64,000 bases of DNA from Gekko japonicus. Taxonomy: Eukaryota. Each line of letters begins with the position of its first letter. Within the stretch, counting starts at the first letter, position 1. The DNA is taken from NCBI RefSeq assembly GCF_001447785.1, contig NW_015172017.1, forward strand, positions 37,717 through 101,716, read 5' to 3'. The position numbers were made by a program. This document shows, piece after piece, positions 1-12,000 of this stretch.

Positions 1-3000
1 TTCTGTTCTCAGTGTGTTTGTGGAAGAGGTTGGGAAGGAAGAAGATGCCCGAGCCGGCCAAGTCCGCGCCGGTCCCCAAGAAGGGCTCCAAGAAAGCCAT
101 CACCAAGACGCAGAAGAAGGGGGACAAGAAGCGCAAGAAGAGCCGCAAGGAGAGCTACTCCATCTACGTGTACAAGGTGCTGAAGCAGGTCCACCCGGAC
201 ACCGGCATCTCCTCCAAGGCCATGAGCATCATGAACTCCTTCGTCAACGACATCTTCGACATCATGAACTCCTTCGNNNNNNNNNNNNNNNNNNNNNNNN
301 NNNNNNNNNNNNNNNNNNNNNNNNNNNNNNNNNNNNNNNNNNNNNNNNNNNNNNNNNNNNNNNNNNNNNNNNNNNNNNNNNNNNNNNNNNNNNNNNNNNN
401 NNNNNNNNNNNNNNNNNNNNNNNNNNNNNNNNNNNNNCTCCCCCCGAGAATACCCAAAGGCTCTTTTAAGAGCCACCCACTTTCTCCGCAAAAGAGCTGC
501 TGTTACTAACACGTTTTTAATTTCCTATTTGTGTAGAGCAAACACACAAAAATCCTTCAACTTAATGAATGAACGCTCCCGCAAACTAAAAATTGAGAGT
601 AAACTTCAATGTTTGCAAGCTCGTGGTCGGATGGGTTACTGGAGCTCCTTTAAAAGCTATACAGACTATCGGGGGGTGTATTGAAGGGTTGCAGTAGAGC
701 CTGGTGGGCACTGGCTCAAGTAATGGGGGGGGGAAGGGATTATTTCTAAATGAATTAAAGGTAAGGCGGTCTGCAGACGAGAGAGAATGCGACACATTAT
801 CTAGAGGAACAAGGTTCGAGTCCAGTAGTACGCTGAAGACCCAAAATCTTGGAAGCTAAGCAGAGTCGGCCCTGGTTAATATTTGCCTGGGAGACCAGCA
901 AGCCAGCCCCGGCCTCGCTGCTGCAGAGGCAGGCAATGGCAAACCACGTCTGAACGCCTCTTGCCTTGAAAAACCCACGAGGTCGCCACAAGTCGGGTAC
1001 AACTTGACGGGGGGGCGAGTGGGGGGCGTCGGAACATTCTGCTCGGATATGGAAGATTTAAGGCAAAGTTTGTGTTAGAAGTCTGCATTCTGCAAACTCG
1101 CTTGATCTTTAACCTGAAGATGGTGGGCCGTGGACTCAACGCAGCGGGCTGTGGGGTCCGCCCCTCAAACACCCCCCCCCCCCTTCACCAGGAAAAATTG
1201 CCTGGTAGTACTGAAGATACAAAGCTGGAATGGTAAAAGAGACTGGGATTACTTGGTGGAGTATTTAAGGGGGCAGCTGCGGTACTCGGTGGGGTACTTA
1301 GTGACCATTCAGAAAAAGGGGTTATTCAGCTGTTGCTTTTTAAAGATGCAGGTTTAAAGCAAAAGACTCTGCCCCCTCTGAGGTTCGAACTCAGGACCTT
1401 CAGATTATGAGACTGACGCGCTGCCTACTGCGCTAAGGAGGCTTCGGGATAGTTCTGTCTGGGAAGCATTGCTATCCGAATACACTTTCCCTTGGAAACG
1501 AGGGACTAAGATTGAAAGGTCTTTTTTTGTCGTCATCCCCCCACCACTTTGTTTGGCCTTTTATATATCTACCCCAATACAGAGCTTTCCCTTTCGGTAA
1601 CTCAAACCTGCCGTTGTTGTCTATTTTTTTGGTTGCTTCTAATAAAAAAAGTATTTACTAGTTTGGATTTAGACCCAAGTGGCTACCGCAACCTGTTGTT
1701 TTCCACAAAGGCAAGGATTATCTGTAGGCACAGCTCTGATCACGGGGGACACATATTCTGAGTACAGAATAATTACCAAAACGGTAAATTTTTCATTCAG
1801 ATTCATGGAAGTGTCACAGGGTGACTGTTGTGGGGAGGGGAAGGGAAAGGAGTTTGTAAGCCGCTCTGAGACACCTTTGGGTAGTGAAGGGCGGGGTATA
1901 AATCCAATCTCTTCTCTTCTGTTATCAAAAAATAAACAAATGAGTAGTTCAGAAAAAAATGTTTAATGTAACACAATGGACCTCAATATTATATTAGGAA
2001 GAAAAACACAACTGGCCCGTACGGGGATCGAACCCGCGACCTTGGCGTTATTAGCACCACGCTCTAACCAACTGAGCTAACCGGCCAATTTATGCACGGC
2101 TTTGAAAGAGGAGCTACTCAGTGTTAATTTAGAGTGGTATTAAACTCTTAGAGGTGGCCTCTAGGTGGCACCACTGGACTATTAACTCAAAGGAAATTCA
2201 ACAAGGCCATTTAAAATTGCCTCAGAATTTGAACTCCCGCTATTGGCCTTTTATATACCGGCCTCTTTCGGGGAGAGGTCCTCTCAAGAGGTACGATTTG
2301 ATCTCTCAGATTCAGTTTTGCGTTTGGGTGTTAGAGGGATGCTGGAGAAGCGGTGGGAGTGTGCTTTCTCAGGTGCATTTACCCTGGCATGGGATTCTTT
2401 CGGTCTGACCTCGCTGATCCATGTCTCATGTTATCTTGAGGCTTGAAGACTGCAACGCACTTTTCACGGGGCTGCCCTTGATGACAACCGGGGAACTTCC
2501 ATTATTGCAGAACACTGCCCCCCCCCCCGGTCACCTTTTAAAGACGAGGTCAGCTGCAGAGCGACCGCCGGGGTTTCCAGTTTCTGCTTCACTCCCTTTA
2601 GGGCACAGTTTCTCTGAACAAAAGAGAAAGGCATCCGAACTGCGGAGTTCCAAAAGAGGCTGTTGAGCTGGGCAGCAGTAGAATTTTCGAGATGGCTTCT
2701 GCAGTGAATTTTTATTGCATGAGGTTACCCACTTTGGACTGGATTCCAGATTTCTGGAAGAAAGGTGCGTTTGTACATATTTTAGATAAGTAAATACATG
2801 ACTCCGGATTTTAAATTCTAACGACAGGACAGTGAAACAGAGAAAATTACATAATCCTATACAGATCTTAAATTGTAAGTTACTGCCTTAGCCAGTTGGN
2901 NNNNNNNNNNNNNNNNNNNNNNNNNNNNNNNNNNNNNNNNNNNNNNNNNNNNNNNNNNNNNNNNNNNNNNNNNNNNNNNNNNNNNNNNNNNNNNNNNNNN

Positions 3001-9000: not shown

Positions 9001-12000
9001 CACAGAAGCCACGCGGCGCGATCGCACTAGCAATCGCTCTTTGTGCGCATGTGCTGTTGGGCACTGTTACGCAACCTGCAGAGACGAACAGCGGCGGGCG
9101 CCAGATGCCACGTAAGTCCACCGGGAACGCGATCAGACGCCCAACCTTGGCCCGCGGTTTCAGGAAACTAGTACCTCGTAGGTACTAGTTTTTAACTCCG
9201 CACCTTCAGCGGGGAGTCATGGGTTCGCCACGGGAGCACTGCGCCCGGAAAATCCGCGGGACTCCCGTGCCTCTCCCGCGGCAACTTTGCCGTGTGACCG
9301 GGGCCCTGGGTTGGCAAACAGAGGAAGGCAATCATGGCAAACCAACTCTGCTCATCTCTTGCCTTGAAAATTCCATGAGGGATCACTTTGAGTTGACTGC
9401 AATTTATTTACAGCCTTGAATTTTATTATCATTCTTATTACCAATGAACTCTGTGAATAAAGGGTATGCAGATGCCAGCTGATGGGGCAAATCTAGCTCT
9501 CCCAGTAACGAATCAGAAGAAATGGGGGCTCGAGGCTACCAAAGCTTGTGCTGGATTCCCCCCTCCCCCCCAAAAAAATCTTTAAGGTGTTTGTTTTTGG
9601 TGCAACAGACTAACACAGCTACTCTGCTGGGATGATTATCACGTTTCCTACAGAATCCTTTAATGACATTCGACAACATGCTGAAATAAACCTACTGTTA
9701 TCATCTTTTAAGATTGTATGCTGGTTTTAAAATTCTATGTAAGCCGCCCTGAGCCGCTTCGGTGGGAGGGCGGGTTAGAAATTTAATAAAATAAATAAAT
9801 AAATAAATCCGTACTGGGGAGTCAGGCGGGGCTCACACACTGCACAGACCCTCTTCAGTTGGCTTGTTTCCATAAAGTGTATGCTCTCTGCTTCACATAG
9901 GAAGAAAAACAAATGGGCCTCTTATCTTAACATACCTCACAGGATTATTTGTGATCAATAACATGGAAGGAAAAACCTGGAATGCTCACCTAAGCTCCTT
10001 AAGCGAAAGGGCAGGGTAAGAATGTGATAGACAGAAAGACTTGAGGTTATCGAGAGGCGAGTGGGGCACTCTGCACATGCTCAGAGAACCTCCTCTGGAA
10101 CGTGCGAAGCAATGCTAAGGGTTTAGGGCTGCCCAGCTCTGGGTTGGGAACTTCTTGGAGGTTTAGGGGTGGAGCCTGAGGAGGGTGGGGTTTGGGGGAG
10201 AGAGTCCTCAACCAGGTATAATGCTATTTTGCTTCAGGAAAACTGATCGATGTGGTCTGGATAAAGTTGCCAGGTCCTCCCTGGCCACCGGCGGGGGACA
10301 GGTGCATAGGGTTGCCAGCTCCAGGTTGGGACACTCCTGGAGATTTGAGAGTGGATCCTGGGGAGGACAGGGAACTCAGTGAGTTACAGTGGCACAGTAC
10401 CCACCCTCCAAAGTGTCCGTTTTCTCTAGGGAAACTGATCTCTGCACTATGGAGATGAGCTGCAATTCCGGGGGATCCCCAGTTCCCACCTGGAGGCTGG
10501 CAACCCTCCCCTCCCGTCTGCCCCAAGACGCCCCTGACTGCTCCGCCGCCGCCTTCCCTCCCTTGCCCCACGTACCGGGAGCCTCATGACCCCCTCCCCG
10601 CAGCTCTCATCATCCAAGCGCCGGGCCTCCCGCGTCCTCGCTTGACCCCGTGACCTCCGATCGCGCCGATTGGCTACCGAAGCTCGAGAAAGAGGGAGCG
10701 GATTGGCCAGGGCTGTCTCCCTCTTGTCCGTCATTGGTCGGGCCTGCGTATCACAGAGAGGGGAGGTCCCAGAGCGGCCGTTCCCCCCGCGTTAAAGAAC
10801 GCTAAGCCGGCCAAGCGAAGGAACTGCCGGAAGTGGGTTTCACCGAGACGGATGCGGAAGTGAGTTGGTTCCGGGAGTTGGGACATGGAGTCCGGGCAAC
10901 TGCCGGTGTGGCGCGGCCTGGGGCTGCTCGGGAGAGGAGCGGAGAGCCCCTCGCTCGGGCCCGGCGGCTGCGAGAGGAGGCTGCTTTGGGTGGCGTCCTT
11001 GCTTTGCGTTTTGCTGGACTTGCAGTTGCCAGGTAACCATGGGAACGGGGAGGGGGGTCCCGCCCTTAGCAACTGCGCCCCTGTTCGCCCCGCCCTCTTT
11101 TGCTTAGTGGCCGCCTCCCGCCACGCTTTTCCATGCGGCTCCAGGCGTCGTCCTTGGTTGTAAGACTCCGCCCACTTTTCAGACCACGCCTCCGGTGACG
11201 TCCTTCACTTAGCCTGAAAGTGTTTTTCTCCGCCTATCCATTCTACTAGTCCTCAGTGTTCTTAAAGGGGTTTGGCACTCAGTTTTATCATTTGTGACTT
11301 GGATTGTTTACTTATGTGTTTTTGGTGAGTTGCGTTTCAGGCTAGCCAATGGCTAATAAAATGCCAACAGGCTTTGACAGCTCTGCAGACCCGTTGTTTA
11401 AATGGGGCAAAATGTTGTTGTTGTTCAGTCGCACAGTCGAGTCCGACTCTTTGCGACCCCATGGACTAGATCCCGCCAGGCCCTCCTGTCTTCCGCCGTC
11501 CTCTGAAGTTGGCTCAATTTCATGTTCGTTGCATCTATGACACTGTCTAACCATCTCATCCTTTGCCGTCCCCGTCTTCTTTGACCTTCAATCTTTCCCA
11601 GCATCAGGGTCTTCTTCTCCAGTGAGTGCTCCCTTCTCATTGGGTGGCCAAAGTATTTGAGCTTCAGTTTCATTATCTGGCCTTCCAGGGAACAGTCAGG
11701 GTTGATTTCTTTTAGGATTGACTGATTTGTTCTTCTTGCAGTCCAAGGGACTCTCAAGAGTCTTCTCCAGCACCATAGTTCAAAAGAATCTATTCTTCGG
11801 CGCTCGGCCTTCCTTATAGTCCAACTCTCGCAGCCATACATGACTACTGGGAATACCATTGCTTTGACCATGCGGACTTTTGTTGGCAGGGTGATGTCTC
11901 TACTCTTTATCATGCTGTTTAGGTTCGCCATCGCTTTCCTCCCAAGTAGCAGGCGTCTTTTAATTTCATGGCTGCAGTCACAGTCTGCGGTGATCTGGGA

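What the first reader, a model, noticed from the sequence alone, without database searches (positions are those of the whole stretch)
2013..10884. ADAT3 outside its SCAMP4 locus, next to a tRNA cluster containing its own substrate
Seen: an intact ADAT3 CDS 3.2 kb from the tRNA cluster, no SCAMP4 exons in the window, and an A10 run ~40 nt past the stop (7574-7583). Known: human and mouse ADAT3 lies inside SCAMP4 and shares its first exon; ADAT2/3 converts A34 to I34 in ANN tRNAs such as Ile-AAT and Ser-AGA. Inference: ADAT3 was relocated (possibly retroposed) or duplicated and captured a new promoter. This gives an operon-like enzyme/substrate neighbourhood in which nascent pre-tRNA genes and the editing-subunit gene share a chromatin domain.
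[Added by the scan's program, not by the reader: the finding's places include an assembly gap (unread letters, written N; its length is only estimated) at 2900 to 3029. Whether the letters on both sides are continuous or in frame is not known: test that first.]
Basis: partly seen in the sequence, partly recalled or inferred. Interest (0 to 1): 0.75.

Follow-up and report, generated by a model that had tools for sequence, protein, structure and literature searches.

The report
ADAT3 gene beside DNAJC3 and tRNAs
This is an ordinary, intact copy of the tRNA-editing gene ADAT3 that here sits back to back with the chaperone gene DNAJC3 at the edge of a histone and tRNA gene cluster, and its closeness to one of its substrate tRNA genes looks like coincidence.

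Summary
An uninterrupted 344-codon ADAT3 coding exon lies on the minus strand (7625-8659). It is 3.2 kb from the nearest of four canonical tRNA genes. An A10 run sits 41 nt past the stop. No SCAMP family match occurred in 721 open frames scanned across the window.

ADAT3 lies head to head with DNAJC3, whose start codon is at 10885, one base past the finding's end. On its 3' side is the edge of a histone H2B and tRNA cluster.

Only one of the four tRNAs, Ile-AAT, is an ADAT substrate. It lies on the far side of the assembly gap (2900-3029) from ADAT3, so that adjacency depends on an unverified scaffold join.

Retroposition is not supported:
- no poly(A) signal before the A run;
- no target-site duplication;
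- GC3 like that of the neighbouring genes.

ADAT3 is outside any visible SCAMP4 context here. Which arrangement is ancestral cannot be settled with these tools. The operon-like enzyme/substrate idea has no support. Verdict: real features, ordinary biology, low interest.

The parts
45..276 (+). 5' part of a replication-dependent histone H2B gene, cut by the N gap at 277-437
   Evidence: Pfam Histone 1.6e-11 for 45-275. Sequence read.
454..499 (+). Histone 3' stem-loop
   Evidence: Rfam RF00032, 39 bits against a gathering score of 34.
1370..1442 (-). tRNA-Met-CAT, elongator type; not an ADAT substrate
   Evidence: ARAGORN. Rfam 65 bits. TTTT follows downstream. 'Elongator' is my reading of the sequence.
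2013..2086 (-). tRNA-Ile-AAT, the only A34 (ADAT substrate) tRNA in the cluster
   Evidence: ARAGORN anticodon aat. Rfam 61 bits. TTTTT follows downstream. Ile(AAU) is listed as a substrate in PMC8216470.
2900..3029 (.). Assembly gap between tRNA-Ile and the ADAT3 side; intergenic
   Evidence: N run. The flanks do not overlap each other and are unique in the window. The gap was not filled.
3275..3347 (+). tRNA-Lys-TTT; not an ADAT substrate
   Evidence: ARAGORN. Rfam 74.1 bits. TTTT follows downstream.
4320..4391 (-). tRNA-Met-CAT with initiator hallmarks (A1:U72, three G-C pairs in the anticodon stem, A54 and A60); not an ADAT substrate
   Evidence: ARAGORN. Rfam 58 bits. The T11 terminator is the run at 4307-4317. 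The hallmarks were read from the sequence; their meaning is established knowledge.
7298..7503 (.). SINE copy about 120 nt downstream of the ADAT3 stop
   Evidence: 17 other matches in the window at 81-89% identity.
7574..7583 (-). A10 run followed by (TA)n; not a retrocopy tail by the tests made here
   Evidence: No AATAAA or ATTAAA lies between the stop and the run.
7625..8659 (-). ADAT3 coding sequence: 344 codons plus TGA, in a single exon
8682..8683 (-). Candidate splice acceptor (pyrimidine tract followed by AG) 22 nt before the ATG; the exon would begin at 8681
   Evidence: Sequence. Use of this site is not shown.
8770..9368 (.). SINE copy of a family that looks 5S-rRNA-derived (my recall), in two halves (8770-8830 and 9309-9368). 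It is split by a 468-bp CpG-rich element (8839-9306) with 17-nt terminal inverted repeats
   Evidence: blastn to other copies of the family. Alignment A6. Inverted repeats match at 16 of 17, local score 17 against a shuffle maximum of 14. CpG o/e is 0.7-1.2.
10574..10576 (-).
   Evidence: Sequence. The overlapping upstream frame is a problem for this model.
10400..11200 (.). CpG island between ADAT3 and DNAJC3. It holds three CCAAT boxes (ATTGG on the plus strand at 10669, 10702 and 10733) and two CCGGAAGT-like sites (10827, 10854). It is a likely bidirectional promoter
   Evidence: GC 0.63-0.68 and CpG o/e 0.54-0.97. Sequence. Promoter function is inferred.
10885..11032 (+). Inferred DNAJC3 exon 1: ATG, hydrophobic signal-like stretch, GT donor at 11033
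   Evidence: Sequence and frame. No family match, as expected for a signal peptide. The assignment is inferred from position upstream of exon 2.
14235..14384 (+). Open frame that holds DNAJC3 exon 2
   Evidence: PDB DNAJC3 2y4t_A, E=1.4e-09.
35511..35828 (+). Open frame that holds the DNAJC3 J-domain exon
   Evidence: PDB DNAJC3 2y4t_A, E=1.6e-23; the next best hit is 1.4e-09. Pfam DnaJ 1.3e-15.
63200..63427 (-). Frame holding exon 1 of a claudin of the 10/15 group. A second exon lies within 51006-51632(-)
   Evidence: PDB claudin-15 4p79_A, E=1.4e-12. Pfam PMP22_Claudin 2.5e-05 and 3.8e-06.

Best explanation
The finding is a normal, apparently functional ADAT3 orthologue. ADAT3 is the catalytically dead partner of ADAT2 in the wobble A34-to-I34 tRNA deaminase.

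The genome is non-mammalian and probably a squamate reptile. That is my inference from a BovB-type reverse-transcriptase fragment and tRNA- and 5S-like SINEs.

The whole protein is encoded in one exon on the minus strand. The gene lies tail-on to the edge of a histone H2B/tRNA gene cluster. It lies head to head with DNAJC3, separated from it by a CpG island that carries CCAAT and ETS-like sites.

ADAT3 is most likely transcribed from that shared island or from TE-derived CpG-rich sequence just upstream of the coding exon. It is then translated and acts in trans with ADAT2 on all A34 tRNAs of the cell.

The four neighbouring tRNA genes are independent Pol III units with their own terminators. 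They belong to the histone/tRNA cluster. That one of them is tRNA-Ile-AAT is coincidence.

Shown: the coding sequence, the family features, the neighbours and the absence of SCAMP exons in the window.

Inferred: the promoter, the 5' exon structure, expression, and that this is the only copy in the genome.
For: ADAT3 identity and integrity:
- E=3.6e-114 to mouse ADAT3 over both the N-terminal and the deaminase domains.
- Pfam deaminase domain.
- 344 codons without a stop.
- The Zn-ligand motifs H..PC..C are kept and the catalytic Glu is absent (HAAMV, compared with PMC8216470 passages).

Neighbours:
- DNAJC3 exons best match solved DNAJC3 (1.6e-23, 1.4e-09, 0.0024).
- TPR and DnaJ Pfam hits lie on the plus strand.
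- The H2B gene and its stem-loop.
- Claudin exons.

tRNAs and SCAMP:
- Four canonical tRNAs with terminators, of which 1 of 4 is a substrate.
- 0 of 721 frames match SCAMP.

No sign of recent arrival:
- GC3 of 0.78 against 0.69-0.99 in the neighbours.
- No target-site duplication.
- No poly(A) signal before the A run.
Against: - Expression was not tested, and the 5' exon and promoter are unknown.
- Two features described for mouse ADAT3 differ. Ala stands where mouse has Val225. The C-terminus ends ..CCDLAHLSVPK instead of ending in Asp-Pro, which in mouse supplies the fourth zinc ligand and the cap. This could mean lineage divergence or a diverging extra copy.
- Only this window could be read. 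A second ADAT3 copy inside SCAMP4 elsewhere in the genome is not excluded.
- SCAMP exons lying in frames shorter than my cut-offs would be missed. The cut-offs were 31 aa for 1-7700 and 50-53 aa elsewhere. The 3' claudin exons expected in 37-51 kb were also not picked up at 52 aa.
- SCAMP4's first exon is, as I recall, non-coding in human. A protein search would not see such an exon.
Confidence: 0.75

Rival explanations
1. Relocated cassette. ADAT3 moved here from a SCAMP4-type locus as a one-exon unit, by retroposition or by DNA-level transposition. It now borrows the divergent side of the DNAJC3 CpG-island promoter, or a TE-derived promoter.
For: - The unique DNA around the CDS is only about 1.27 kb (7504-8769), bounded by SINEs on both sides.
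- A pyrimidine-rich acceptor lies 22 nt before the ATG, so a borrowed 5' exon is possible.
- A CpG island shared with DNAJC3 lies 1.9 kb upstream.
- Human ADAT3 likewise shares another gene's promoter (PMC2568002 table).
- A teleost lists adat3 in a third neighbourhood (PMC7915175 table).
Against: - No poly(A) signal before the A10 run, and the run is followed by (TA)n.
- No target-site duplication.
- GC3 like the neighbours.
- The direction of the change is unknown, because no outgroup genome could be searched.
Confidence: 0.15
2. Extra copy. This is a paralogue that is diverging or degenerating, while the main ADAT3 remains elsewhere in the genome.
For: Ala replaces the Val at the pseudo-catalytic position. 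The C-terminal Asp-Pro cap described for mouse is not present (against PMC8216470 passages).
Against: The frame is full length and intact. Both domains are conserved at E=3.6e-114 and the zinc-ligand motifs are kept. Neither difference restores or destroys a known activity.
Confidence: 0.06
3. Functional enzyme/substrate neighbourhood. The ADAT3 gene and the nascent tRNA-Ile genes share a chromatin domain for co-regulation.
For: Physical proximity only: 5.5 kb between ADAT3 and tRNA-Ile-AAT.
Against: - 3 of the 4 tRNAs are not substrates.
- The one substrate lies across an assembly gap.
- The genes are transcribed by different polymerases, and the tRNAs have their own terminators.
- The enzyme needs ADAT2 and acts in trans.
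- At least one substrate gene among four tRNA genes is expected by chance about half the time or more.
Confidence: 0.02
4. Scaffolding artefact. The segment left of the gap (H2B, Met, Ile-AAT) does not belong next to ADAT3.
For: An N gap of estimated length at 2900-3029 separates them. A second gap (277-437) and a duplicated 16-nt string at its edge show that this end of the scaffold is poorly assembled.
Against: tRNA genes lie on both sides of the gap at similar spacing, and composition is similar (GC 0.44 and 0.43). That fits one continuous cluster.
Confidence: 0.1

Closest known systems
Mammalian ADAT3 (mouse ADAT3 of the ADAT2/ADAT3 structures 7nz7, 7nz8, 7nz9, 9hmm)
   Same: Same two-domain layout. 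E=3.6e-114. The His and Cys-x-x-Cys zinc motifs are kept and the catalytic Glu is lost. The CDS is in one exon; that this is also the human structure is recalled.
   Different: Ala instead of Val at the Glu position. A longer C-terminal tail without the terminal Asp-Pro. A different genomic host: DNAJC3, tRNA and H2B neighbours instead of SCAMP4 (for human).
Human ADAT3/SCAMP4 promoter-sharing pair
   Same: The ADAT3 coding exon is preceded by a splice acceptor, with a CpG-island promoter that also serves another gene nearby.
   Different: Here the other gene is DNAJC3 on the opposite strand (head to head), not a same-strand host. No SCAMP exons were found, 0 of 721 frames. Use of the shared promoter is not shown.
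Vertebrate histone/tRNA gene clusters (for example the human 6p22 cluster; recalled)
   Same: A replication-dependent H2B gene with its stem-loop sits next to several canonical tRNA genes on both strands.
   Different: Only the edge of such a cluster is in the window. Its extent is unknown.
Processed retrogenes that recruit neighbouring CpG promoters
   Same: A one-exon CDS, a possible borrowed 5' exon, and an A run after the stop.
   Different: The hallmarks were tested and not met: no poly(A) signal, no target-site duplication, and no intron-bearing parent known.

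Membership tests
ADAT3 / Tad3 (inactive subunit of the wobble tRNA deaminase) | ADAT3-specific N-terminal domain followed by a CDA-fold deaminase domain | tested here: met
   phmmer matches mouse ADAT3 over query 10-237 and 259-338, E=3.6e-114. 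Pfam dCMP_cyt_deam_1 7.7e-16.
ADAT3 / Tad3 (inactive subunit of the wobble tRNA deaminase) | Zinc ligands His and Cys-x-x-Cys are kept (mouse H223, C289, C292) | tested here: met
   LLHAAMV and EPCVMCA align with mouse LLHAVMV and EPCVMCA. The residue roles come from PMC8216470 passages.
ADAT3 / Tad3 (inactive subunit of the wobble tRNA deaminase) | Catalytic Glu replaced by a non-acidic residue (Val in mouse and yeast) | tested here: met
   Ala stands at the aligned position, so the Glu is absent though the residue is not Val.
ADAT3 / Tad3 (inactive subunit of the wobble tRNA deaminase) | C-terminal Asp-Pro that supplies the fourth zinc ligand and caps the pocket (mouse D348, P349) | tested here: not met
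   The protein ends ..CCDLAHLSVPK. Whether another residue takes this role is unknown. The feature is described for mouse and is not established as defining for the family.
ADAT3 / Tad3 (inactive subunit of the wobble tRNA deaminase) | Forms a heterodimer with ADAT2 and supports A34 deamination | not testable with these tools
   No ADAT2 gene is in the window, and no complex job was run.
SCAMP4-nested ADAT3 locus (human arrangement) | SCAMP coding exons on the same strand downstream of the ADAT3 exon | tested here: not met
   0 of 144 frames of 31 aa or more in 1-7700 (both strands) match SCAMP at E up to 1. 0 of 577 further frames elsewhere match. Exons beyond the left edge of the window cannot be seen.
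SCAMP4-nested ADAT3 locus (human arrangement) | First exon shared with SCAMP4 | not testable with these tools
   As I recall, that exon is non-coding in human. No transcript data and no reference DNA were available.
Processed retrogene | Poly(A) tail remnant placed after a poly(A) signal at the end of the 3' UTR | tested here: not met
   The A10 run is 41 nt after the stop with no AATAAA or ATTAAA before it, and it is followed by (TA)n. It is one of 5 such runs in 64 kb.
Processed retrogene | Target-site duplications flanking the insert | tested here: not met
   Only AT-rich, 64-77% identical direct repeats flank the gene.
Processed retrogene | Loss of introns relative to an intron-bearing parent | not testable with these tools
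   No parent locus is available. The human CDS is also in one exon (recalled).
Bidirectional (head-to-head) promoter pair | Divergent genes with starts less than 1 kb apart in a CpG island with CCAAT and ETS-type sites | tested here: inconclusive
   The island, three CCAAT boxes and two CCGGAAGT-like sites lie between 10576 and 10885. However, the ADAT3 start site is unknown, and the coding exon is 2.2 kb from the DNAJC3 ATG.
Co-localised enzyme/substrate gene cluster | Neighbouring genes enriched for the enzyme's substrates beyond chance | tested here: not met
   1 of 4 tRNAs is a substrate, which is about the chance expectation. It also lies across an assembly gap.

The most novel reading that the evidence does not exclude
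ADAT3 is a serial promoter hitch-hiker. It would be a one-exon coding cassette that has changed host more than once in vertebrate evolution: SCAMP4's first exon in human, the divergent side of the DNAJC3 CpG island or a transposon-derived promoter in this reptile, and an mstn/pms1/ormdl1 neighbourhood in a flatfish. An essential tRNA-editing subunit would then be expressed from borrowed promoters. In this lineage that could tie wobble-inosine capacity to the regulation of an ER-stress chaperone gene.
Probability: 0.12. Interest if true: 0.4.

Novelty: already known. Interest (0 to 1): 0.15.

Why it matters
As it stands it matters little. ADAT3 is a well-studied gene, and a change of gene order between reptiles and mammals is commonplace.

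The useful outcomes are corrective:
- The promoter region in the finding belongs at least as much to DNAJC3 as to ADAT3.
- The substrate tRNA adjacency rests on an unverified scaffold join.
- The A run is not a retrocopy tail by the tests made here.

If comparative work showed that ADAT3 has repeatedly moved between host promoters, that would be a modestly interesting case of an essential gene living on borrowed regulation. The Ala-for-Val change and the altered C-terminal tail may interest those who study how ADAT3 is kept inactive.

Tried and rejected
I used lists of stop-to-stop frames held in alignments instead.

2. Recalled SCAMP motifs run as regular expressions over six frames gave one WYRP at 42883 in an unrelated context and nothing else. 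This was a lead only.

3. ER-stress element CCAAT-N9-CCACG (recalled consensus): no match in the island core 10400-10900. Two 2-mismatch hits lie just outside it at 10292 and 10336. There were 33 matches in the window against 51 expected. Motif-based coupling to the unfolded-protein response is dropped.

4. Compositional foreignness of ADAT3 is rejected. GC3 is 0.78, against 0.69 for DNAJC3 (236 codons pooled from five partial exons), 0.99 for H2B and 0.96 for the claudin.

5. The proximal CpG-rich block (8800-9400) as an ancestral ADAT3 promoter is doubtful. It is a 468-bp element with terminal inverted repeats inserted in a SINE. The repeat finder did not report those arms; my own alignment did.

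6. The bacterial-type promoter and terminator scan is irrelevant to a vertebrate and is ignored.

7. Naming the claudin CLDN10 is withdrawn. Its exon 1 is closest to solved claudin-15, and no claudin-10 chain came up.

8. Literature. The six-term search was too loose; none of its 15 listed papers holds ADAT3. The searches ADAT3+DNAJC3, ADAT3+CLDN10, ADAT3+UGGT2 and ADAT3+synteny found no paper on this gene order in reptiles or birds.

9. No structure or complex prediction was run. The sequence match to solved ADAT3 made it unnecessary, and no alignment could be built.

Full report
**The assembly gap.** The window has three N runs: 277-437, 2900-3029 and 37109-37182. The gap inside the finding (2900-3029) lies between tRNA-Ile-AAT (2013-2086) and tRNA-Lys-TTT (3275-3347).
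- No coding feature spans it. The only long frame across it is made of X. Reading frame is therefore not an issue.
- The 300-nt flanks do not overlap each other, with local alignment scores of 14 and 13.
- Apart from a 36-nt match, the flanks occur nowhere else in the window.
- The consequence matters. ADAT3, tRNA-Lys and one tRNA-Met lie on one side. The only ADAT substrate gene, tRNA-Ile-AAT, lies on the other side with the second tRNA-Met and H2B.

**The observation.**
- *ADAT3.* The minus-strand frame 7625-8755 is open. ATG is at 8659 and TGA at 7627-7625, giving 344 codons in one exon. The protein matches mouse ADAT3 of the solved ADAT2/ADAT3 complex at E=3.6e-114 over both domains. It carries the cytidine/deoxycytidylate deaminase domain (7.7e-16). 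It is the only copy in the window.
- *tRNAs.* ARAGORN and Rfam agree on four canonical tRNA genes: Met-CAT (1370-1442, -), Ile-AAT (2013-2086, -), Lys-TTT (3275-3347, +) and Met-CAT (4320-4391, -). Each is followed by a run of T. By its sequence the second Met gene has initiator hallmarks. A weak fifth Rfam hit at 20525-20596 reads like the tRNA-like head of a SINE (my reading).
- *Distance.* The ADAT3 stop is 3.2 kb from the nearest tRNA, as stated.
- *A10.* The run is at 7574-7583, 41 nt after the stop.
- *SCAMP.* I scanned 721 stop-to-stop frames against Pfam. They comprised:
  - 144 frames of 31 aa or more, on both strands of 1-7700, where SCAMP4 exons would lie if the human layout held (E up to 1);
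  - 147 frames of 52 aa or more in 37-51 kb;
  - 146 minus-strand frames of 50 aa or more in 7.7-37 kb;
  - 146 plus-strand frames of 53 aa or more in 7.7-37.1 kb;
  - 138 frames of 52 aa or more ending beyond 51 kb.

  None matched SCAMP. In one search, 26 families matched and 25 were shown. The unseen one has a single member and E of at least 0.087.
  - Left out: frames with three or more X, and frames below the cut-offs.
  - Positive controls: the same procedure recovered TPR (5 frames), DnaJ (1) and claudin (2).
  - A limit: it did not pick up the short 3' claudin exons expected in 37-51 kb. Short exons can therefore escape outside 1-7700.

**What surrounds the gene.**
- Plus-strand frames from 14.2 to 37.0 kb carry DNAJC3 exons. 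I searched them one by one:
  - exon 2, E=1.4e-09 to solved DNAJC3;
  - a TPR exon, E=0.0024;
  - the J-domain exon, E=1.6e-23, with the next best DnaJ protein at 1.4e-09;
  - TPR and DnaJ Pfam hits.
- The inferred DNAJC3 exon 1 consists of an ATG at 10885, a hydrophobic stretch and a GT at 11033. It starts one base after the finding's end.
It has three CCAAT boxes and two CCGGAAGT-like sites. This is the look of a bidirectional promoter, but its function is inferred.
- Further right is a claudin on the minus strand. Its first exon is closest to solved claudin-15 (1.4e-12), so I call it a claudin of the 10/15 group.
- At the left end is a replication-dependent H2B gene (Pfam Histone 1.6e-11) with its 3' stem-loop (Rfam). 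The tRNAs therefore look like the margin of a histone/tRNA cluster, an association familiar in vertebrates (recalled).
- Nothing in the window was taken for human. The BovB-type reverse-transcriptase fragment at 11.4-12.2 kb and the SINE families suggest a squamate, which is my inference.

**Retroposition.** The hallmarks were tested and not met.
- The 41 nt between the stop and the A10 run hold no AATAAA or ATTAAA. The run is followed by a (TA)n microsatellite in DNA of 29-35% GC.
- The direct repeats flanking the gene are only AT-rich and 64-77% identical.
- ADAT3's GC3 of 0.78 is in the range of its neighbours: DNAJC3 0.69 over 236 codons from five partial exons, H2B 0.99, claudin 0.96. It is not compositionally foreign.
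- A one-exon CDS is also the human structure (recalled), so it says nothing either way.
- An ancient event whose marks have decayed cannot be excluded. An intact A10 would then not be its tail.

**The 5' end.** A good acceptor (pyrimidine tract then AG at 8683-8682) lies 22 nt before the ATG, so a 5' non-coding exon is plausible.
However, the frame that ends at 10576 contains an ATG at 10587. The frame that begins at 8681 stays open for 72 codons, past the ADAT3 ATG and out of frame with it. This was worked out by arithmetic, without joining the pieces.
- That model therefore puts a 76-codon overlapping upstream reading frame on every transcript, which argues weakly against it.
- Other GT sites exist, for example CAG|GTACTA near 8812.
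- The CpG-rich block just upstream (8800-9400) is not plain promoter DNA. A SINE copy of a family that looks 5S-rRNA-derived (my recall) is split into 8770-8830 and 9309-9368. The splitting element is 468 bp long (8839-9306) and has 17-nt terminal inverted repeats matching at 16 of 17, with local score 17 against a maximum of 14 in 500 shuffles.
- With the SINE at 7298-7503, which has 17 other matches in the window, the unique DNA around ADAT3 is only about 1.27 kb.
- No ER-stress element (recalled consensus) lies in the core of the shared island.

- One of the four tRNAs here qualifies.
- With 8 of roughly 47 anticodon families, or about a quarter of tRNA genes (both recalled), a cluster of four holds at least one substrate gene with probability of about 0.5 to 0.7.
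- ADAT3 is inactive by itself, works as a heterodimer with ADAT2 and needs a full tRNA (same paper, passages). Its mRNA must be translated before the protein meets any tRNA. I see no mechanism by which gene proximity would help.
- The one substrate gene is across the gap.

**Comparison with what is known.**
- Human ADAT3 and SCAMP4 are listed as a promoter-sharing pair on chromosome 19 (PMC2568002, table passage). I did not verify the mouse arrangement.
- A Solea senegalensis BAC table lists uggt2, dnajc3, cldn10, abcc4 in one BAC. It lists hibch, c2orf88, mstn, pms1, ormdl1, adat3, alkbh6, osgepl1 in another BAC on the same chromosome (PMC7915175, table passage). Scamp4 does not occur in that paper's text. 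ADAT3's neighbours therefore differ among human, this genome and a teleost, and the ancestral state is open.
- My searches for ADAT3 together with DNAJC3, CLDN10, UGGT2 or synteny found no paper describing this order in reptiles or birds.

**Differences from mouse ADAT3.**
- At the position of the lost catalytic Glu, mouse has Val225. This protein has Ala (HAAMV against HAVMV).
- Mouse ends in Asp348-Pro349, which supply the fourth zinc ligand and cap the pocket. This protein ends ..CCDLAHLSVPK.
- The zinc-ligand motifs are kept. These differences may be lineage variation. They are also the only hint for the extra-copy rival.

**Verdict.** The features are real, and the gene is an ordinary ADAT3 orthologue in a gene order that differs from human. 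The relocation claim is supported only in the sense that ADAT3 is not in a SCAMP4 setting within this window. Retroposition, the proposed splice junction and the operon-like neighbourhood are not supported. Interest is low.

Noticed in passing
window 226-276 and gap 277-437: The H2B coding sequence repeats the 16-nt string coding ..IMNSF.. immediately before the N gap (..[16 protein letters not shown] then N). This looks like an assembly artefact at the gap edge. The stem-loop at 454-499 sits where it should if the estimated gap length is about right.
   Followed up: partly
window 8839-9306: A 468-bp CpG-rich element with 17-nt terminal inverted repeats (16 of 17) interrupts a SINE copy of a family that looks 5S-rRNA-derived (my recall), directly upstream of the ADAT3 exon. 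No clear target-site duplication is present, and there is no other copy in the window. It may be a non-autonomous DNA transposon and a possible TE-derived promoter.
   Followed up: partly
window 7628-8659 (protein residues ~220 and C-terminus): This ADAT3 has Ala where mouse and yeast have Val at the lost catalytic Glu position. It also lacks the terminal Asp-Pro that caps the zinc pocket in mouse ADAT3.
   Followed up: partly
window 6790-7043: Two 129-nt stretches that are 100% identical, offset by 125 nt (6790-6918 and 6915-7043). This is either a perfect tandem duplication or an assembly stutter.
   Followed up: no
window 10130-10460: Two copies about 182-192 nt apart of a repeat unit, 71-77% identical, inside the putative ADAT3 intron. 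Related pieces occur at about 49.1, 54.0, 48.0 and 36.2 kb.
   Followed up: no
window 11428-12648 (-): Fragments of a BovB/RTE-type LINE reverse transcriptase (Pfam RVT_1 in 3 frames) lie in DNAJC3 intron 1. Together with the SINE families, this points to a squamate genome.
   Followed up: partly
window 20525-20596 (-): A tRNA-like Rfam hit of 38 bits that ARAGORN does not call. The sequence reads like the tRNA-derived head of a SINE, not a tRNA gene.
   Followed up: partly
window 51006-51632 and 63200-63427 (-): A claudin gene next to DNAJC3 has a first exon closer to solved claudin-15 than expected if it were CLDN10, the DNAJC3 neighbour I recall in human and that is listed in sole. Its 3' exons were not located.
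   Followed up: partly
window 37109-37182: A third N gap lies less than 100 nt after the end of the last DNAJC3 coding exon (..FKFHFN stop at about 37015).
   Followed up: no
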